Shown piece after piece: positions 37,556 through 46,243 of a stretch of 64,000 nucleotides of DNA (positions within the stretch are counted from its first letter, which is position 1; each line of letters begins with the position of its first letter). The stretch is from sequence record PZ445524.1. One strand, written 5' to 3'. This DNA is from a phage. A program made the translations under genes and the position numbers. Below the pieces are notes generated by a model. That model was given only the letters and a program-made list of their open reading frames with translations, made no database searches and was not told where the DNA came from.

Positions 37556-38134
37556 TTAGGAATTACGGGCTGCATTAGCAACGGCATACGCGTACTGAAT
37601 ATTAGCGTCTTTAAACTTACCTTTAGAGGTATCTATTTCTGCCTTAAAGCCGCCTTTAGTCATAACATCGGCAAATTCTTTACGGAAAGCCATTGCATCA
37701 AGACCTTTCCATGATGATTTATGCTTAGCAAATTCAAGACCTGCGAAGTTAACAGCCTTAGCTAATTTATTATCAATAACCCATTTACCGGCTTTAGGCA
37801 CAAACTTCGGGCCTTTCTGTTTAGAGAACAGTTTTAAATTCCAGCGGCGAAGGTCTGCATCAGCTTTAACAAATTCTGAGTCTAAGTTACTAGCAACAAC
37901 ATCTTCAATATGAGCAAATTTAAGTCCGTCAACTTCAATATTTAAATCGGTACGCCAGCGAAGTCCTTCCCATGCGAAGGCTTTAAAGTCGGAAGCCTTT
38001 GTAGCTAAGTACCGTTCAATAGGAGCTGTTTTAGGGTCAAAGCCGTTTCCCGATCGGTAGGTCCACTCATCTTTGTTAATGCCTTTGGCCTTTACTACAG
38101 AAGCTTCGGCAATAAATTCTTGATATGTTTTCAT
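37556..38134 (-). CDS. ipIII: Internal protein III
   Basis: 192 aa beginning with the capsid-targeting leader MKTYQEFIAEA. Confidence 0.8.
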   Translation of the reverse strand: MKTYQEFIAEASVVKAKGINKDEWTYRSGNGFDPKTAPIERYLATKASDFKAFAWEGLRWRTDLNIEVDGLKFAHIEDVVASNLDSEFVKADADLRRWNLKLFSKQKGPKFVPKAGKWVIDNKLAKAVNFAGLEFAKHKSSWKGLDAMAFRKEFADVMTKGGFKAEIDTSKGKFKDANIQYAYAVANAARNS

Positions 38135-38150: not shown

Positions 38151-38468
38151 TTATTCTTTAGGGAAGTTTTTAGAATATGCATCATAAAGCTTATTTCCAA
38201 TACGGCGGAAAACTCTAGCCGCAAAACGATTTTCTGGGTTTTTAATCATGATTTGCATCATATAAGTACCCGCGTCAGAAAGAGCTTCTTCATAGTACCC
38301 GTTAATTTCTTTAAGAGTCCTACGTTTACCACCAGGACCATCAACAGTGATTTTCCATTTACCTGTAGAAGTGCGACTTGGCGGCTCAACTTGTTCAATC
38401 CAAATATAACCGCCTTCTACACGTTGTCCTGCAGCAGATTCTGCAATAAATTCTTGATATGTTTTCAT
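38151..38468 (-). CDS. ipII: Internal protein II
   Basis: 105 aa beginning MKTYQEFIAES. Confidence 0.75.
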   Translation of the reverse strand: MKTYQEFIAESAAGQRVEGGYIWIEQVEPPSRTSTGKWKITVDGPGGKRRTLKEINGYYEEALSDAGTYMMQIMIKNPENRFAARVFRRIGNKLYDAYSKNFPKE

Positions 38469-39087: not shown

Positions 39088-39528
39088 TTAAAAGAGGTTG
39101 TTCATTATTCGGTAAAGTGAAGGACCCATCACATATTGCCACTGAGTACGAGGAATAAGAGCAAAAGCGTCCATCTCTGGAATCATAACGCCATCTTTAT
39201 TTTCAAAATAAGACTCGCAACGGCAATTTCTAAACATCTCATGCTCTACTGGAATCGTATAATAAAATAACTGTAGGTCTTTATTACTAGAATATTTAAA
39301 TACACCTAGGTCTTCTAGAAGGTCTGGATTATAATTGCTAAAACCAGTCTCTTCTAAGCATTCTCTTCGTGCTGCATCTAATGCGCTTAAATCAGAACAT
39401 TCTACACGACCTTTTGGAATATCCCAACGATGTGCCATCATTCCAGGCTTACGAGAACCAGTAACCCGACCCATAAATAAATCTTTATCTTCTGTCATAA
39501 AGATAATACCAGCTGATAATGTTTTCAT
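39088..39528 (-). CDS. nudE: Nudix hydrolase NudE
   Basis: Nudix box (RECLEETGF); ATG at 39526-39528 with AGGAA SD; track extends to a TTG at 39543. Confidence 0.85.
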   Translation of the reverse strand: MKTLSAGIIFMTEDKDLFMGRVTGSRKPGMMAHRWDIPKGRVECSDLSALDAARRECLEETGFSNYNPDLLEDLGVFKYSSNKDLQLFYYTIPVEHEMFRNCRCESYFENKDGVMIPEMDAFALIPRTQWQYVMGPSLYRIMNNLF

Positions 39529-39887
39529 TTTAATTTCCTGCAATCACTCACAAACTCTTTCATTGATTCATTTTCAATATAAGACATGTAGCTATTATAT
39601 TCCTTTAATTGTATTTTGTAATCCTTTTTTCTTTGCCAATTTATTTTAAAATTATCATAATGAAAATATAGCATGATACCAAAGAATGAAAATAATGAAA
39701 TCGCTATAGTAAAACGAAGTTCACTCCAAACCTCTGTTATAATTACTGTGCCGTCGATGTTTAAAATAAGACAGTCAATTAACAATCCAAAAAGACTACC
39801 TGCAAGAGCTGCAGCCAACGCCACAGCAAAAATTAAAAATGACTCAGGAAACGAATATTTGACTTTATTTAATTTTGGCTTTTGCAT
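39525..39887 (-). CDS. Small membrane protein
   Basis: 120 aa with two predicted transmembrane helices. Confidence 0.5.
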   Translation of the reverse strand: MQKPKLNKVKYSFPESFLIFAVALAAALAGSLFGLLIDCLILNIDGTVIITEVWSELRFTIAISLFSFFGIMLYFHYDNFKINWQRKKDYKIQLKEYNSYMSYIENESMKEFVSDCRKLK

Positions 39888-40261
39888 CGTGATTCCTTAA
39901 CAAATTTCATAATTTCATTAAATTCATACATATCAAGTTTAAGCTGATGTTCCCTTTTAATCTTTTTACATTGGGCTTTCCAATCGCGTACACGTTTACG
40001 ATAATGTCTTCCTTGATACCAATATCCTATCCAGTTTACAGGTACTAATAAAAATGGAACTATTAATGGAAGAATTAGCATTAACACAAGTATTTCGCCA
40101 GAATCAATATCAGTCATAACATCTAAAACACCTCCAATAATCAATAGAATTACAAATGATATGAGTATCACAGGACCTATTAATACATCAGTAGAAATTA
40201 TCTGACGCTTTAATTCATACTTCAACGGTTTACTTGGAAGGTATAGTGATGGTTTTGACAT
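39869..40261 (-). CDS. Small membrane protein
   Basis: Track start is TTG; ATG at 40259-40261; two hydrophobic helices. Confidence 0.45.
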   Translation of the reverse strand: MSKPSLYLPSKPLKYELKRQIISTDVLIGPVILISFVILLIIGGVLDVMTDIDSGEILVLMLILPLIVPFLLVPVNWIGYWYQGRHYRKRVRDWKAQCKKIKREHQLKLDMYEFNEIMKFVKESRCKSQN

Positions 40262-40838
40262 ATTCTCTACATTCCTTAACAAATTTTTCTAGTAATAAAT
40301 CACTTTCAAAATTAGGATTTTCCACTAATTTATCAAAAAGACCATCAACAATATTCAAGATATTTCTTTTACTAAGAATACGTTTATTTTCATGCTTCGT
40401 TTCAGAATCAACTATAAGAGTAAAGAAATATTTCTTTCCCTGAAATTTTACTGTAGTATCAATATAGAATAAATTTGACTTTTGTAAGTTACGTTTAAAC
40501 CATGCGTCACTTAAACTATAAACACCGAGATAATCAAAATCGTCGTTTAAATAACAAACTGTCCATTCAGGGGAAATGAAATCAGTAAATTCAACATCAA
40601 AATCACATGTCAATAAATGAATTGATTCAATGCTGTTAATAAGTATTCCAGGACGTATTAAAGACTTTTTACCTCTGGAAAATCTTCCAGAAAGACTTTC
40701 ATCAGTTTCATATGAAGAACCCCAATAATAATTACGTCCTTCTGCCATACGTTTAAGAGCATTTAGCAATTGGTCTGGAACATCAACTTGCCTTTGGAAC
40801 TCTTCAAACATTGAATTGAAATCACTTTGCATTTTCAT
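40230..40838 (-). CDS. Hypothetical protein
   Basis: 202-aa ORF. Confidence 0.5.
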   Translation of the reverse strand: MKMQSDFNSMFEEFQRQVDVPDQLLNALKRMAEGRNYYWGSSYETDESLSGRFSRGKKSLIRPGILINSIESIHLLTCDFDVEFTDFISPEWTVCYLNDDFDYLGVYSLSDAWFKRNLQKSNLFYIDTTVKFQGKKYFFTLIVDSETKHENKRILSKRNILNIVDGLFDKLVENPNFESDLLLEKFVKECREYVKTITIPSK

Positions 40839-40859
40839 TCCTATTTACTCCAAGTAATA

Positions 40860-40873
40860 GGGGCCGAAGCCCC
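40860..40873 (-). terminator. Hairpin ggggc-cgaa-gcccc
   Basis: UUCG-loop hairpin 7 nt after the stop of the 197-aa gene. Confidence 0.45.
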
Positions 40874-40879
40874 TTATCA

Positions 40880-41473
40880 TTATTTCAGAGAATTAATATA
40901 TTCCTGAACATCGGCAGAGGTAGTTTCAACCCCAGAAATATTGCCATTAAATGTTTCAACTCGAGCAAGAGTATCTTCAATATCAACCTTAGTCAGTGCT
41001 GCAATTTCAACTACATCATCAGCAGTACTAATTCCAAGTGCATTCGCTGCACGAGTTTCACGGATATATTCCAATTTAACTGCAAGTTCTTGGCGAGCAT
41101 CATCTAACTCAACTACTTTCTTAGCGATTTCAATTCGCATTTCAGCATAACCATCAGCTTTAGTAGTCAGCTGTTCAGCTGTTCGACGATATAGCAAACC
41201 GAGTTTAGCATGCATTGTTACATCTTGACCTTCGGAAAGAAGCTTGCGAATTTCACGCTCTTTTGATTCAGCCTGCTTATTCTTTTCGACAATAAGTTCA
41301 CGAATACGCTTTTCTTCATTAATAGATTTAACAGAAGCAGTTTTTAGATCTTTAATTTTATCAAGCAGTTTTGCTGCTGCGGCAGTATACTGTTCTTCAA
41401 CAGATAAATTTTTAGCCATAGCAGAACCAAGTTTAGTGCGAATAAACTCAACAATTTTCTTCAGTGTGTTCAT
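40880..41473 (-). CDS. All-alpha coiled-coil protein
   Basis: 197 aa, heptad-rich and charged throughout. Confidence 0.5.
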
Positions 41474-41516
41474 AGTATTTCCTTAGGTTAATTAAGATTT
41501 AAAATCCATGAGAGTA

Positions 41517-41693
41517 TTATACTCCGGATAGGTTGTAAACTATTTCAACATCGCCTTTTGCTGCTTTATAACCTTCAGCCCAAGATACAACCGAGTTTTT
41601 ATCCGAAGATTCAAATTCTGGCATTGGGCTTTCGCCAATGTTCACGCAGTATGTTTCTTCATTTTCGTCAAACCAAATAATTAAAGTAGTCAT
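41517..41693 (-). CDS. Hypothetical small protein (58 aa)
   Basis: Found by hand: MTTLIIWFDENEETYCVNIGESPMPEF... Confidence 0.3.
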   Translation of the reverse strand: MTTLIIWFDENEETYCVNIGESPMPEFESSDKNSVVSWAEGYKAAKGDVEIVYNLSGV

Positions 41694-42254: not shown

Positions 42255-42818
42255 TTATTTACCTAGTTTAGCTATTATAGCTTCGGCAGCAGCTTTTAGC
42301 TTAGATGCAGTGTTAATACGATTTTTAATTTCAGTATAAGCATCGCCAAGAACATCAAGGCTATCAGAATAAACACTTACACTATTGCGTTCGCTATTTG
42401 AAATAGAACCTTTAGTTTTACGATCAAAATCGGTATACACGTCTTGAAGATCGCGGGCTGCCTTCTTTGCATCATCCAATGCATCAAGAGCTTTATTCAA
42501 AGCATTAACATATTTTTTAGTGTCAAACATATTCTTAGAAATTTTGACAGGTGCGCGTTCAGGAGTAGCTAAGGCAGATTTAGGAACCTGTTTACCAGAT
42601 GCCAGTTTCTTAGAAATTTTGAAAAATGCTTTATTGAAATTATTTTCTTGACTCATCGTAAAAGAACTATTATCGATGTTATACATTTCAATAGCTTTAG
42701 CTTTCCACTTAAGAAAATCGCCCCGGTCTTTTGGGTCCAAGTGGAAGAATACTTTAGTAAGATCTGCTTCAGATGGTAATTTTGCTGCTTCGGTTAAAAA
42801 TTCTGCATAGGTTTTCAT
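42255..42818 (-). CDS. Internal-protein-like protein with capsid-targeting leader (187 aa)
   Basis: N-terminus MKTYAEFLTEAAK follows the MKT(Y/F)xEF(I/L)xE leader pattern of T4 internal proteins. Confidence 0.55.
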   Translation of the reverse strand: MKTYAEFLTEAAKLPSEADLTKVFFHLDPKDRGDFLKWKAKAIEMYNIDNSSFTMSQENNFNKAFFKISKKLASGKQVPKSALATPERAPVKISKNMFDTKKYVNALNKALDALDDAKKAARDLQDVYTDFDRKTKGSISNSERNSVSVYSDSLDVLGDAYTEIKNRINTASKLKAAAEAIIAKLGK

Positions 42819-42897
42819 TTAAAATCCTTGAAATAATTTATTGGTTATTAATTATTTATTATTGTAACAGCATTCTCCGAGTGATTCAAACTAAAAA

Positions 42898-42919
42898 GCC
42901 CCAACCTTTCGGTCGGGGC
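42898..42919 (-). terminator. Intrinsic terminator closing the tRNA/stable-RNA operon
   Basis: mRNA GCCCCGACC-GAAA-GGUUGGGGC then UUUUU. Confidence 0.55.
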
Positions 42920-42925
42920 TAAGCC

Positions 42926-43236: not shown

Positions 43237-43313
43237 TGGTCGAGGCAGAAGGATTCTAACCTTCAACCTACGGATTAGAAATCCGTTGCTCTATACAATT
43301 GAGCTATGCCCCG
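43237..43313 (-). tRNA. tRNA-Arg (anticodon UCU), CCA encoded
   Basis: Cloverleaf built by hand: acceptor CGGGGCA/TGCCTCG, anticodon loop TTTCTAA, T-loop GTTAGAATCC. Confidence 0.85.
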
Positions 43314-43316
43314 TAA

Positions 43317-43982
43317 TTAAAATTTCATTTTTCGACCTTTAAACCATCCTTCTGGAATTGGGTCAGTTTTCTTAATACGTTTAGAAACTTTTTCATCTAA
43401 TGAATGAATCCACATCATACCAAATTGGGAATTCTTTTCGCCCTGTTGATGTTTATTTCTGGCGTGAGATTCTTTCATTTTATTAATAGTTTCAGGAGTA
43501 TGATGCTTATTTAAAAATCTGCTATTATTTAAAAATTTTTCCCTGTATTCAGGAGTTGACCACAAGCGTTTAAATACATTTGAACCATGTTTACGATATT
43601 TTTCTTGAAGTAAAATATCATTTTTAAAACGTGACTTAAACGATTTAGCTCCTTTTAAGCTAGCATCTTTCTTCTGGTTTAGCATCCCAGGAATATTTAC
43701 ATGATCCCATCCACCTTCACCACCAAGTTTTAAATTATACACATCTGGTCTATTTAAAAACTCTTCTGTGACAATATTTTTCTCGGCTTCAAGCATAGAT
43801 TCTTTATCATCAAAATACTCTAATATTTCTTTAGAAAAATTTTCTATACCATATTTATCTTGGGCTCTTTTTAATAATTTACCAGAACCCATATATCCAT
43901 CATCTAAATTTTCGGTAGAATGCGCACCAATATAAATTTTATTATTAATTTTATTTGTTATTTTATAAGTGTAATGGAACAT
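43317..43982 (-). CDS. segB: GIY-YIG homing endonuclease SegB
   Basis: 221 aa; GIY-YIG motif (YTYKITNKINNKIYIGAHST); sits between tRNA subclusters as in T4. Confidence 0.85.
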   Translation of the reverse strand: MFHYTYKITNKINNKIYIGAHSTENLDDGYMGSGKLLKRAQDKYGIENFSKEILEYFDDKESMLEAEKNIVTEEFLNRPDVYNLKLGGEGGWDHVNIPGMLNQKKDASLKGAKSFKSRFKNDILLQEKYRKHGSNVFKRLWSTPEYREKFLNNSRFLNKHHTPETINKMKESHARNKHQQGEKNSQFGMMWIHSLDEKVSKRIKKTDPIPEGWFKGRKMKF

Positions 43983-44023
43983 AAATATCTCCTATTTCTA
44001 AGAGTATTTATGTTCCCAAAATA

Positions 44024-44095
44024 TGGCCCTGGGTGGAATTGAACCACCATCTGGCGATTATGAGTCGCTTGCTTGAACCTTCCAGCTACAGGGCC
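44024..44095 (-). tRNA. tRNA-Ile (anticodon CAU), CCA not encoded
   Basis: Acceptor GGCCCTG/CAGGGCC; anticodon loop CTCATAA; T-loop GGTTCAATTCC. Confidence 0.8.
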
Positions 44096-44096
44096 T

Positions 44097-44172
44097 TGGT
44101 GCTGATTGACGGAATCGAACCGCCGACCTTCTCATTACAAGTGAGTTGCTCTACCTACTGAGCTAAATCAGC
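44097..44172 (-). tRNA. tRNA-Thr (anticodon UGU), CCA encoded
   Basis: Acceptor GCTGATT/AATCAGC; anticodon loop CTTGTAA; T-loop GGTTCGATTCC. Confidence 0.85.
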
Positions 44173-44174
44173 AA

Positions 44175-44261
44175 CGGAGGCGATAGGATTTGAACCTATG
44201 AGTCGCCGGAGCGACTGCCGGTTTTCAAGACCGGTGCATTAAACCACTCTGCCACGCCTCC
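44175..44261 (-). tRNA. tRNA-Ser (anticodon UGA), long variable arm, CCA not encoded
   Basis: Acceptor GGAGGCG/CGCCTCC with G discriminator; anticodon loop CTTGAAA; long extra arm. Confidence 0.85.
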
Positions 44262-44263
44262 AG

Positions 44264-44337
44264 TCTCCGCGGCAGGATTTGAACCTGCGACATTCTGCTC
44301 CCAAAGCAGACGCTCTACCAAACTGAGCTACACGGAG
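44264..44337 (-). tRNA. tRNA-Pro (anticodon UGG), CCA not encoded
   Basis: Anticodon stem TCTGC/GCAGA with loop TTTGGGA; T-loop GGTTCAAATCC. Confidence 0.85.
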
Positions 44338-44347
44338 TAAATTAAAT

Positions 44348-44421
<74 letters not shown>

Positions 44422-44426
44422 AAATT

Positions 44427-44513
44427 TGGTGCGAGAAGTGGGACTCGAACCCACAAGGAAATCATTCCGCAGCATTTTAAGTGCTGTGCCTTTACCAATT
44501 TGACCATTCTCGC
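44427..44513 (-). tRNA. tRNA-Leu (anticodon UAA), long variable arm, CCA encoded
   Basis: Acceptor GCGAGAA/TTCTCGC; anticodon loop CTTAAAA; long extra arm. Confidence 0.85.
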
Positions 44514-44514
44514 G

Positions 44515-44587
44515 CTGGGAATAAAGGACTCGAACCTTTGCATCCTGGAATCAAAATCCAGTGCCTTACCAACTTGGCTAATTCCCA
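44515..44587 (-). tRNA. tRNA-Gln (anticodon UUG), CCA not encoded
   Basis: Acceptor TGGGAAT/ATTCCCA; anticodon loop TTTTGAT; only 1 nt separates it from tRNA-Leu. Confidence 0.85.
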
Positions 44588-45632: not shown

Positions 45633-45857
45633 TTATTCAACACCAGCGGCTTTCAAAAGTTTTTTAAGATTGGCAACACCTTGAGCAGAAAATGTGACCT
45701 TGCCACCTTTTTCACTGATAGAACCAACCAATTTAGCAAGTTTATCATTAGGAATTTTTTTAAAATCAGCCAATGTTCCATCAAAGGTTTTTGAAACAAA
45801 AGGCAGTTCGTCTTCATGTCTTTTAGCTTCTGCAATAAATTCTTGATATGTTTTCAT
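45633..45857 (-). CDS. ipI: Internal protein I-like (capsid-targeted, 74 aa)
   Basis: Starts MKTYQEFIAEAKRH (ATG 45855-45857); in the T4 ipI position upstream of 57B. Body not verified against T4 IPI. Confidence 0.6.
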   Translation of the reverse strand: MKTYQEFIAEAKRHEDELPFVSKTFDGTLADFKKIPNDKLAKLVGSISEKGGKVTFSAQGVANLKKLLKAAGVE

Positions 45858-45934: not shown

Positions 45935-46243
45935 CTATTTTATTCCGCGTGATGCAATTGTGTTCTGTCGTTTAACACCAGTTTGTTTAAAGTCATGATT
46001 GTCGATTTGATCGGTACGAGCAACTCCGAATGATGATTTGATTTTAGCTTTAGATCCTTTAGTTATAGAAATAAACATCTCGGAAGCCCCTTTCTTAAAG
46101 TCCGAGGCGATTACTTCAACGCCGTTCTTAGCAAGTGACTTCAGAATTGCCTCTGCATACTCATCGTCAAGACTCGTCTGAGTATTAATAACGAATGTCT
46201 TTGGCGCAGCCGCTTCATTGATAAATTCTTTAAATGTTTTCAT
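45935..46243 (-). CDS. Internal-protein-like protein with capsid-targeting leader (102 aa)
   Basis: Starts MKTFKEFINEAAA; basic body. Confidence 0.55.
   Translation of the reverse strand: MKTFKEFINEAAAPKTFVINTQTSLDDEYAEAILKSLAKNGVEVIASDFKKGASEMFISITKGSKAKIKSSFGVARTDQIDNHDFKQTGVKRQNTIASRGIK

What the first reader, a model, noticed from the sequence alone, without database searches (positions are those of the whole stretch)
40880..41473. 197-aa all-helical coiled-coil protein with unknown role
The protein is charged and heptad-rich over its whole length and has its own terminator. The architecture is reminiscent of membrane-stress or ESCRT-III-like remodelling proteins (PspA/IM30 class), but I see no diagnostic motif, so this is only a structural impression.
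Basis: inference. Interest (0 to 1): 0.35.

Follow-up and report, generated by a model that had tools for sequence, protein, structure and literature searches.

The report
T4 e.6: phage-encoded PspA/Vipp1-like protein
This gene is T-even phage gene e.6, a very divergent, compact relative of the bacterial membrane-repair proteins PspA/Vipp1 (ESCRT-III superfamily) that the phage makes early in infection, probably to keep the host inner membrane intact; the resemblance has been noted in two papers but never tested experimentally.

Summary
The ORF at 40880..41473 (-) is real. It is gene e.6 of a T-even phage: the protein is 100% identical to T4 e.6/"msp3", and in T4 it is detected as early RNA and middle protein. 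It is 197 aa, 34% charged, has no Pro/Cys/Trp, is about 84% helical in the model, and has significant heptad periodicity.

- A profile of the extended e.6 family aligns to PspA+Vipp1 in register from residue 1 (hhalign 94-95%, E 1e-7 to 2e-8; reversed or shuffled decoys reach at most 15%).
- The sequence profile alone reaches Vipp1 in PDB at E=8e-5.
- Template-free AlphaFold models give the helix order α0, α1-α2/3 hairpin, α4, α5.
- The ten best Foldseek PDB hits are all Vipp1, followed by archaeal CdvB2.

It is very divergent. Pfam PF04012 gives no hit, the hallmark motifs F4, N14/N16, AEDP and W71 are absent, and there are no psp partner genes.

The "own terminator" is a conserved G+C hairpin (GGGGC-UUCG-GCCCC) without a U-tract.

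The homology was already noted in passing (PMC7862958, PMC9409062). Function is untested. The most likely role is a phage-supplied membrane/PMF stabiliser after host shut-off.

The parts
40880..41473 (-). Gene e.6 (197 aa plus stop codon): divergent PspA/Vipp1(IM30)/ESCRT-III-superfamily protein
   Evidence: ORF list. 100% identical to T4 e.6/msp3. phrog_1203 at E 8e-88. hhalign against PspA+Vipp1 94-95%. Foldseek top ten hits are all Vipp1.
41408..41470 (-). Codons 2-22: N-terminal helix α0, amphipathic, the presumed membrane anchor
   Evidence: Predicted helix 2-22. Hydrophobic moment 0.36-0.45, against 0.40 for E. coli PspA and 0.50 for Vipp1 over the same residues. Residues 1-24 alone align in register to PspA 1-22, score 22.6 against a decoy maximum of 11.1.
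41039..41401 (-). Codons 25-145: α1 (25-80), turn (81-85) and α2/3 (86-145), forming the long helical hairpin that is the core of the ESCRT-III fold
   Evidence: pLDDT 79-98 across the hairpin. Residues 25-145 alone align to PspA 26-137, score 27.6 against a decoy maximum of 15.9. The family's most conserved block, [10 protein letters not shown] (88-97), lies on the PspA/Vipp1 block LAR(E/A)AL..K.
40883..41038 (-). Codons 146-197: C-terminal short helices (152-160, 166-174, 186-196), the presumed α4/α5 equivalents, ending in the conserved ...D(V/I)xEY(L/I)xSLK
   Evidence: Global hhalign places the tail on the Vipp1 α5 motif VEDELAALK. On its own this segment gives no significant match (score 13.6, within decoy range), so the assignment is tentative.
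40859..40874 (-). 3' stem-loop AGGGGC-UUCG-GCCCCU, 5 nt after the stop codon, with no U-tract on this strand; likely an RNA 3'-end stabiliser or weak terminator
   Evidence: Annotated as 'stem_loop, putative' in T4 L13089.1. A G+C hairpin of different sequence occupies the same position in all eight other phage records examined.
41511..41540 (-). Promoter-like region upstream of e.6: GTTTACA (41534-41540), then either TATAAT (41516-41521, 12-nt spacer) or TACTCT (41511-41516, 17-nt spacer)
   Evidence: Read from the sequence. In T4 the same GTTTACA is annotated as the -35 of a promoter (GTTTACA-17-TATTAT). That fits the T4/PST early-promoter consensus TTTACW-N17-TAYWAT (PMC4122927). The simple sigma-70 scan did not call it in this window.
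41480..41484 (-). Shine-Dalgarno sequence AAGGA, 6-10 nt upstream of the ATG
   Evidence: Read from the sequence. Invariant between this window, T4 and T2.

Best explanation
e.6 is a phage-encoded, highly divergent and compact (197 aa, α0-α5) member of the PspA/Vipp1(IM30)/ESCRT-III superfamily. The proposed mechanism has three parts. (1) It is transcribed early from its own promoter as a single-gene cassette. (2) The soluble protein attaches to the cytoplasmic face of the host inner membrane through its N-terminal amphipathic helix α0, and polymerises through the α1-α2/3 hairpin, with the C-terminal helix bridging subunits as in PspA/Vipp1. (3) The resulting carpets, rings or rods stabilise stressed membrane and keep the proton-motive force up during infection. 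T4 abolishes host gene expression within minutes, so the host cannot induce its own sigma-54-dependent psp operon and the phage supplies the effector itself. Plausible stresses include tail-tube puncture and superinfection, holin accumulation and lysis inhibition, and insertion of phage membrane proteins. Shown here: gene identity, expression class (from the literature), homology and predicted fold. Inferred: membrane binding, polymerisation and the physiological role.
For: Homology:
- hhalign of the 42-sequence e.6 family (A2) against 8 PspA + 21 Vipp1 (A3): 95.4%, E 1.8e-8, e.6 1-140 against PspA 1-141.
- With first-sequence match states: 94.1%, 167 columns, 1-176 against 1-171.
- Against the Vipp1 subset alone: 93.5%.
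- Decoys: reversed profiles 0.3%; 90 column/block shuffles at most 14.6%, score at most 27 against 52-60.
- α0 alone and the hairpin alone each align in the correct register above their decoys.
- hmmsearch of A2 against PDB sequences: the four best hits are Vipp1, E 8e-5 to 4.5e-4, 1-146 against 1-147.

Fold:
- Template-free AF2 models built only from e.6-family sequences (pLDDT 74.6 and 82.0) give helices 2-22, 25-80, 86-145 and three short ones.
- Foldseek PDB: ranks 1-10 are all Vipp1 (E 2.4e-4 to 1.5e-2, probability 1.00), then CdvB2; CHMP1B is at rank 21 (same pattern).
- α0 is amphipathic at PspA-like strength, and the protein has no TM segment.
- Class-conserved equivalents exist for PspA polymer-contact residues R44, R88, L91, L125 and L139 (residue list from PMC11746142).

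Literature and expression:
- Independent HHpred reports: PMC7862958 and PMC9409062.
- T4 e.6 is early RNA, middle protein.
- Host transcripts are globally degraded within 4-7 min (PMC9697503).
Against: - No significant Pfam PF04012 or Snf7 match for any of 31 family members.
- The PspA/Vipp1 hallmark residues F4, N14, N16, A22-E-D-P25 and W71 are not conserved. Only 16 of 44 strongly conserved columns keep their residue class. The conservation profiles correlate weakly (r=0.22, barely above shifted registers).
- The C-terminal third has no independent statistical support.
- Whole-chain TM-scores are modest (0.41-0.51).
- A deep profile search of 1.84 billion representatives pulled in no cellular PspA.
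- Long helical hairpins are prone to spurious similarity; prefoldin alpha appears at E 7.5e-4.
- Nothing here shows membrane binding, oligomerisation or any phenotype.
Confidence: 0.6

Rival explanations
1. Dedicated counter-defence. e.6 is a PspA-like protein whose selected role is to neutralise abortive-infection systems that kill by depolarising or permeabilising the inner membrane (Rex-type and similar), not general membrane upkeep.
For: This was proposed for the phrog_1203 member of Kuttervirus SeF3a (PMC9409062). The gene is early. It lies in a hyperplastic, accessory region. It is patchily distributed in Ackermannviridae and moves as a single-gene cassette between unrelated contexts, which is typical of anti-defence genes.
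Against: There is no experimental support. The gene is near-universal and well conserved across many Straboviridae genera on varied hosts (1107 records), which suits a general infection-physiology role better than a counter to one defence. It shares the homology evidence with the main explanation and differs only in purpose.
Confidence: 0.2
2. Regulatory mimic. e.6 imitates host PspA to bind PspF (or PspB/PspC) and silence or hijack the host phage-shock response, without acting on the membrane itself.
For: From general knowledge, E. coli PspA is both an effector and an anti-activator of PspF, acting through its N-terminal helices. e.6 retains α0 and α1 in register.
Against: Identity to E. coli PspA is only about 11-13%. 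The match to the enterobacterial PspA subset alone (50%) is weaker than to cyanobacterial Vipp1 (93.5%), so there is no sign of host-specific mimicry. Host transcription and mRNA are eliminated within minutes anyway, which makes repression of one sigma-54 operon redundant.
Confidence: 0.08
3. A generic coiled-coil protein with a different job (virion or assembly scaffold, or 'host specificity' / 'tail completion' protein as some records call it). On this view the PspA likeness is convergence of long helical hairpins.
For: Some GenBank/UniRef entries label homologues 'host specificity protein' or 'tail completion protein'. Pfam noise hits are all coiled coils. Prefoldin and other coiled coils appear among the weaker hits.
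Against: These labels come with no evidence. The gene sits among early non-structural genes and is in the early-RNA class. The alignment to PspA/Vipp1 is in register from Met1 through about 170 residues, survives reversal and shuffle controls, and is reproduced by two separate segments. Every one of the top ten structural matches is Vipp1, not an assortment of hairpins.
Confidence: 0.07

Closest known systems
Vipp1/IM30 of cyanobacteria and chloroplasts (e.g. Synechocystis sll0617; PDB 7O3W, 6ZVR, 8QBR)
   Same: Best sequence-profile and structural match. α0 and the α1-α2/3 hairpin align in register, 1-146 against 1-147. In global mode e.6 1-197 spans Vipp1 1-214, i.e. α0 to α5. α0 is amphipathic in both.
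   Different: About 13-20% identity. e.6 lacks the Vipp1-specific C-terminal extension (α6) and has a shorter α3-α5 region. The hallmark residues F4, N14/N16, AEDP and W71 are absent. It is encoded by a virus of non-photosynthetic hosts.
E. coli PspA (phage shock protein A; PDB 4WHE; Pfam PF04012)
   Same: Same superfamily and helix order, similar length (197 against 222 aa). Aligned 1-176 against 1-171. HHpred 99.9% was reported for a T4 e.6 homologue against 4WHE_A (PMC7862958). PspA is a peripheral inner-membrane effector that preserves PMF (PMC9409062).
   Different: No PF04012 hit. The match to the PspA-only profile is weak (50%, E 1.6e-4). There is no psp operon context (no PspB, PspC or PspF). 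It has an early phage promoter instead of sigma-54/PspF control.
Other phrog_1203 members already called PspA-like: Kuttervirus SeF3a gp125 ('shock protein A') and Klebsiella phage Metamorpho gp163
   Same: Same protein family as e.6. All are about 200 aa and are followed by a G+C hairpin.
   Different: Only 25-37% identical across the Straboviridae/Ackermannviridae divide. They lie in unrelated gene neighbourhoods (replication genes in SeF3a; lysozyme/tRNA region in T-even phages), and the downstream genes are not homologous.
Archaeal CdvB/CdvB2 and eukaryotic ESCRT-III (CHMP1B, Snf7)
   Same: Same basic fold by Foldseek: CdvB2 at ranks 11-14 and CHMP1B at rank 21.
   Different: Much weaker matches (E 0.035-0.16). 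No Snf7 Pfam hit. No Vps4-type ATPase partner gene is evident nearby.
Annotated 'PspA/IM30 family protein' of Acinetobacter phage vB_AbaM_ME3
   Same: Another phage-borne member of the superfamily, picked up structurally by the e.6 model (rank 12, E 0.095).
   Different: It carries a recognisable PspA/IM30 annotation and is 229 aa. It is not a member of the e.6 family at sequence level, since it did not appear.

Membership tests
PspA/IM30 family (Pfam PF04012) | Significant match to the curated family profile | tested here: not met
   PF04012 does not appear for e.6, even at E up to 10. It is also not among the 25 most frequently matched families when all 31 members are scanned.
PspA/Vipp1/ESCRT-III superfamily | Detectable homology by profile-profile comparison, in register over α0-α3 | tested here: met
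   hhalign 94-95%, E 1e-7 to 2e-8, from residue 1. Decoys reach at most 14.6%. The profile reaches Vipp1 in PDB at E 8e-5.
PspA/Vipp1/ESCRT-III superfamily | Fold: long α1-α2/3 helical hairpin followed by shorter α4 and α5 (six helices in PspA; PMC11746142) | tested here: met
   Predicted, not experimental. Helices at 2-22, 25-80, 86-145, 152-160, 166-174 and 186-196. Foldseek ranks 1-10 are all Vipp1.
PspA/Vipp1/ESCRT-III superfamily | N-terminal amphipathic helix α0 (first ~22 residues) for membrane binding | tested here: met
   Helix 2-22. Hydrophobic moment 0.36-0.45, against 0.40 (PspA) and 0.50 (Vipp1). α0 aligns alone in register. Membrane binding itself was not tested.
PspA/Vipp1/ESCRT-III superfamily | Conserved signature residues (F4, R6, N14, N16, A-E-D-P 22-25, R44, W71, LAREAL block, L125/E126) | tested here: inconclusive
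   16 of 44 strongly conserved columns keep their class (R6, L40, R44, R88, A90, L91, K94, L125, E131, L139, A145...). F4, N14, N16, AEDP and W71 are lost. The conservation correlation of 0.22 is barely above shifted registers.
PspA/Vipp1/ESCRT-III superfamily | C-terminal α5 that docks on a neighbour's hairpin in the polymer | tested here: inconclusive
   The conserved tail ...DVxEYLxSLK lines up with Vipp1 ...VEDELAALK in global mode. The C-terminal segment alone scores within decoy range.
PspA/Vipp1/ESCRT-III superfamily | Homo-oligomerisation into rings, rods or carpets, and membrane stabilisation or remodelling | not testable with these tools
   Needs purified protein, EM and liposome assays. 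No multimer prediction was available.
Psp stress-response system (PspF-ABC) | Operon or regulon context with PspB/PspC/PspF and sigma-54 control | tested here: not met
   The neighbours are phage genes e.5, e.4, e.3, nudE, e and small ORFs with no Psp domains. The promoter is early-phage type.
Canonical ESCRT-III (Snf7 family, PF03357) | Snf7 profile match and a Vps4-type AAA ATPase partner | tested here: not met
   No Snf7 hit. No such partner among the neighbouring genes. CdvB2 and CHMP1B are only weak structural matches.
Intrinsic (Rho-independent) terminator, for the 3' hairpin | G+C-rich stem-loop immediately followed by a U-run on the transcribed strand | tested here: not met
   The stem-loop is present, but the tail is AUUACUUGGAG and the scan called it only on the opposite strand. 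Among the eight other phage records checked, only RB43's hairpin has a U-run.

The most novel reading that the evidence does not exclude
e.6 is a functional minimal viral ESCRT-III. On this reading it is a self-sufficient polymer of about 200 residues that T4-like (and some Ackermannviridae) phages deploy early to remodel or seal the host inner membrane. For example, it could close tail-tube or superinfection punctures, or hold the membrane energised so that holin triggering and lysis inhibition stay under phage control. It would spread between phage lineages as a one-gene promoter-to-hairpin cassette. That would make the best-studied phage the first with a demonstrated ESCRT-III-type membrane system and the smallest natural member of the superfamily.
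Probability: 0.3. Interest if true: 0.7.

Novelty: new member of a known kind. Interest (0 to 1): 0.4.

Why it matters
PspA, Vipp1 and ESCRT-III are now seen as one ancient membrane-repair and remodelling superfamily, but no viral member has been characterised experimentally.

e.6 is found in more than a thousand sequenced phages, including T4, the classic model with full genetics. It is still labelled 'hypothetical' or, wrongly, 'host specificity protein'.

If it stabilises the host membrane after host shut-off, that would explain how T-even phages keep the proton-motive force up through puncture, superinfection and prolonged lysis inhibition. It would also provide a very small, tractable ESCRT-III-like polymer for structural work.

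It matters for phage therapy annotation as well, as a possible counter to membrane-depolarising abortive-infection systems.

The homology itself is not a new discovery; it has been mentioned in two papers. The value lies in a well-controlled confirmation and a testable mechanism.

Tried and rejected
1. Direct Pfam assignment. No significant family for e.6 or any of 31 homologues; the hits are coiled-coil noise below the curated cut-offs.
2. Narrow-family profile (A1, 31 close sequences). This gave only 16% by hhalign and E about 1-2 against Vipp1 in PDB. Significance needed the distant members found by the deep search.
3. Deep profile search of 1.84 billion representatives. It found only about 45 e.6-type clusters and no bridge sequences to cellular PspA.
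4. C-terminal α5 motif as independent evidence. Rejected as unsupported, since its score lies within the decoy range.
5. Coincidence of conserved columns. Too weak to count (r=0.22 against 0.20 at shifts).
6. A conserved e.6 + downstream-gene module. Rejected: e.5 (phrog_2607), the Ackermannviridae 'membrane protein' (phrog_11433) and RB43 ORF268 (phrog_10543) are unrelated.
7. Canonical terminator. Rejected because there is no U-tract on the gene's strand.
8. A true PeSL element at the e.6 3' end. Not established. The hairpin is not followed by a promoter before e.5, and e.6 is not mentioned in PMC4122927.
9. 'Host specificity protein' and 'tail completion protein' labels. No supporting evidence found.
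10. The most distant members (P0084, P0088) lie in arrays of genes without any Pfam hit. That looks phage-like but is uninformative.
11. Literature searches for experiments on e.6 or on phage-encoded PspA found none in the held library.

Full report
**1. What is there.**
The ORF at 40880..41473 on the minus strand is exactly as described: ATG start, 197 codons, preceded by an AAGGA ribosome-binding site. The window is a T-even phage genome. This 1.3-kb stretch is 98% identical to phage T2, where the gene is annotated e.6 and lies between e.5 and a small ORF. That places it downstream of the tRNA cluster and upstream of e.4, e.3, nudE and the lysozyme gene e. The protein is 100% identical to T4 e.6, called msp3 in the old T4 record L13089.1. 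Homologues are encoded in 1107 of 50,697 phage records, mostly Straboviridae of Enterobacterales and Aeromonas. In T4 the gene is expressed: published time-resolved omics put e.6 in the early-RNA, middle-protein class (PMC9697503 supplements).

**2. Checking the observation.**
- Composition: 34% charged residues, net charge -1, no Pro, Cys or Trp. The 3.5-residue hydrophobic periodicity over the whole chain was matched by none of 1000 shuffles.
- Structure: two template-free AlphaFold2 models built only from e.6-family alignments agree on helices at 2-22, 25-80, 86-145, 152-160, 166-174 and 186-196, about 84% helix. Mean pLDDT is 74.6 with 31 sequences and 82.0 (pTM 0.67) with 42.
- So 'all-helical, charged, heptad-rich' is right. 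The architecture, though, is a long antiparallel hairpin plus short helices, and residues 146-185 are low-confidence.
- Terminator: this claim is only half right. A strong hairpin AGGGGC-UUCG-GCCCCU starts 5 nt after the stop codon. On the gene's strand it is followed by AUUACUUGGAG and then the e.5 start, not by a U-run. The scan accepted it only for the opposite strand.

**3. What it is.**
Direct family searches are uninformative. Pfam gives only sub-threshold coiled-coil noise for e.6 and for all 31 aligned homologues, with no PF04012. PHROGs places it in phrog_1203, 'unknown function'. A profile search of 1.84 billion representative proteins finds only about 45 clusters. The complete ones are about 200 aa and match end to end, the rest are short fragments, and none is a cellular PspA.

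Adding those distant members to the alignment (A2, 42 sequences, down to 18% identity) makes the remote relationship visible.

- Profile-profile, full set: hhalign against an alignment of 8 enterobacterial PspA and 21 cyanobacterial Vipp1 sequences (A3) gives 95.4% probability, E 1.8e-8, with e.6 1-140 on PspA 1-141.
- With first-sequence match states the alignment runs 1-176 against 1-171 at 94.1%.
- Controls: coiled coils can inflate such scores, so I ran decoys. Reversed profiles give 0.3%. Ninety column- or heptad-block-shuffled profiles reach at most 14.6% (score at most 27, against 52-60 for the real comparison).
- Subsets: Vipp1 alone gives 93.5%. The low-diversity PspA subset alone gives 50%.
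- Split queries: residues 1-24 (α0) align to PspA 1-22 (score 22.6, decoy maximum 11.1). Residues 25-145 align to 26-137 (27.6, decoy maximum 15.9). Residues 146-197 alone give nothing above decoys.
- Sequence profile alone: hmmsearch of A2 against PDB sequences puts four Vipp1 sequences on top at E 8e-5 to 4.5e-4, again 1-146 against 1-147. With the narrower A1 profile these were only E of about 1-2.
- Fold: Foldseek on the better model ranks ten Vipp1 chains first (E 2.4e-4 to 1.5e-2, probability 1.00), then archaeal CdvB2, with CHMP1B at rank 21.
- Whole-chain TM-scores are modest (0.41-0.51). The hairpin-only chain 6ZVS_A gives 0.69 normalised to the target.
- The viral structure library extends the e.6 family to Ackermannviridae-type phages. 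It also lists an annotated phage PspA/IM30 protein and a giant-virus Snf7 among the weaker hits.

**4. Anatomy against PspA/Vipp1.**
PspA is described as six helices: α0 is the first 22 residues, α1 and α2/3 form the hairpin, and α5 contacts the hairpin of a neighbour in the polymer (PMC11746142). e.6 reproduces the order and the boundaries of α0, α1 and α2/3 almost residue for residue.
- Its α0 has a hydrophobic moment of 0.36-0.45, against 0.40 for E. coli PspA and 0.50 for Vipp1.
- It has no transmembrane segment.
- The most conserved block of the e.6 family, [10 protein letters not shown] at the start of α2, falls on the conserved LAR(E/A)AL..K block of PspA/Vipp1.
- Class-conserved equivalents exist for the polymer-contact residues R44, R88, L91, L125 and L139.
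- The divergence is nonetheless large. F4, N14, N16, the A-E-D-P junction motif and W71 are not conserved. Only 16 of 44 strongly conserved columns keep their class. The conservation profiles correlate weakly. This explains why Pfam misses it.
- The conserved tail ...DVxEYLxSLK resembles the α5 motif ...VEDELAALK / ...SEQLAQLK, but that resemblance is not statistically supported.

**5. Context and mobility.**
- In RB43, in Kuttervirus SeF3a (where it is annotated 'shock protein A') and in Klebsiella phage RCIP0012, the gene lies in unrelated neighbourhoods. The downstream genes belong to different PHROGs and are not similar to e.5. There is therefore no conserved partner gene, and no Psp-type partners.
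- In T-even phages two 2-TM proteins (e.4, e.3) lie just downstream. In the Ackermannviridae-type phages a 1-TM protein follows directly. This is noted but not interpreted.
- T4 has an annotated promoter directly upstream (GTTTACA-17-TATTAT). It fits the T4/PST early-promoter consensus TTTACW-N17-TAYWAT (PMC4122927).
- The GTTTACA is conserved in this window, but the -10 spacing is ambiguous.
- In all eight other phage records examined (T4, four further Straboviridae, RB43 and two Ackermannviridae-type phages), a G+C-rich hairpin of different sequence sits 5-10 nt after the stop codon. Only RB43's has a U-run.
- e.6 thus looks like a self-contained early cassette bounded by a promoter and a stem-loop. 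That fits its movement between lineages. The hairpin more likely stabilises a 3' end or terminates weakly than acts as a canonical terminator.

**6. Mechanism.**
- Best supported: e.6 is a phage-supplied PspA/Vipp1-type effector.
- Shown here or in cited data: identity, early expression, homology, predicted fold, amphipathic α0.
- Inferred from what the superfamily does: α0-mediated binding to the cytoplasmic face of the inner membrane, polymerisation through the hairpin and the C-terminal helix, and stabilisation of stressed membrane and of the proton-motive force.
- The rationale is that host gene expression is shut off and host mRNAs are degraded within minutes of T4 infection (PMC9697503). 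An inducible host Psp response is therefore unavailable just when the membrane is punctured, loaded with phage membrane proteins and holin, and held through lysis inhibition.
- Rivals:
  - A dedicated counter to membrane-depolarising abortive-infection systems, as proposed in PMC9409062.
  - A regulatory mimic of PspA acting on PspF or PspBC.
  - A generic coiled-coil or structural protein with only convergent similarity.
- The second is disfavoured by the very low identity to host PspA and by host shut-off. The third is disfavoured by the register-true alignment, the decoy controls and the uniformly Vipp1 structural hits.

**7. Known or new.**
- The homology is not new. A 2021 genome announcement states that a T4 e.6 homologue (Metamorpho gp163) aligns to E. 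coli PspA 4WHE_A by HHpred at 99.9% (PMC7862958). A 2022 paper calls a phrog_1203 member of Kuttervirus SeF3a a PspA homologue and suggests an anti-Abi role (PMC9409062).
- I found no experimental work on e.6 or on any phage-encoded PspA-like protein in the searchable library.
- Public records still say 'hypothetical' or 'host specificity protein'.
- I therefore file it as a divergent member of a known superfamily. It fails the Pfam family test but passes the profile-profile and fold tests, and its function is untested.
- Interest is moderate. The result is unsurprising to anyone who has run HHpred on it. It remains an uncharacterised ESCRT-III-superfamily protein in the best-studied phage, with clear and cheap experiments available.

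Noticed in passing
window 40859-40874; also L002:1581-1596, L009, L010, L011, L012, L004, L005, L003 just after the e.6 stop codon: A G+C-rich hairpin lies 5-10 nt after the e.6 stop codon in every phage examined. Its sequence and loop differ between lineages (UUCG, AAA, UACG, ACAU, UAUA, GCAA), and the downstream gene differs too. Only RB43's has a U-run. The position is conserved while the sequence changes on both sides of the stem, which suggests a functional RNA 3' structure or cassette boundary.
   Followed up: partly
window 37556..38134, 38151..38468, 42255..42818, 45633..45857, 45935..46243 (all minus strand): Five ORFs begin with near-identical N-termini (MKTYQEFIAE / MKTYAEFLTE / MKTFKEFINE). 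From general knowledge this looks like the capsid-targeting sequence of T4 internal proteins. It would mean an expanded and scattered set of internal-protein genes, one of them (187 aa) between e.8 and the tRNA cluster.
   Followed up: partly
window 43237-44587 (minus strand): Eight tRNA genes (Arg, Met, Thr, Ser, Pro, Gly, Leu, Gln). A 221-aa ORF that reads as a GIY-YIG (SegB-like) homing endonuclease (43317..43982) sits between tRNA-Arg and tRNA-Met. That family call is from reading the translation, not from a profile search.
   Followed up: partly
window 39525..39887 (e.3) and 39869..40282 (e.4), minus strand: Two overlapping genes each encode a small protein with two predicted transmembrane segments and a charged helical C-terminal tail of similar character, so they may be paralogues. 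In Ackermannviridae-type phages the PspA-like gene is instead followed directly by a single-TM 'membrane protein' (phrog_11433). Whether any of these cooperate with e.6 is unknown.
   Followed up: partly
window 41517..41693 (minus strand) compared with L002:584-919: The gene just upstream of e.6 differs between close relatives. Here and in T2 it is a 58-aa ORF (phrog_5461); T4 has a 111-aa e.7. The sequence diverges exactly upstream of the conserved GTTTACA promoter element, which points to a recombination or indel boundary at the promoter.
   Followed up: partly
L003:4154-4447 (RB43 e.6): RB43's annotated e.6 is only 97 aa, and tblastn matches only residues 52-197 of T4 e.6. The gene may be truncated, frameshifted or mis-annotated in RB43.
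   Followed up: no
database labels of e.6 homologues: Many GenBank/UniRef entries call e.6 homologues 'host specificity protein', and one calls its homologue 'tail completion protein'. Nothing in the sequence, context or expression class supports these names, so they look like propagated mis-annotations.
   Followed up: partly
window 42897-42920 (minus strand): A canonical-looking intrinsic terminator (10-bp stem with 7 G-C pairs, GAAA loop, then UUUUAG) lies upstream of the 187-aa internal-protein-like ORF. It contrasts with the U-less hairpin after e.6.
   Followed up: no
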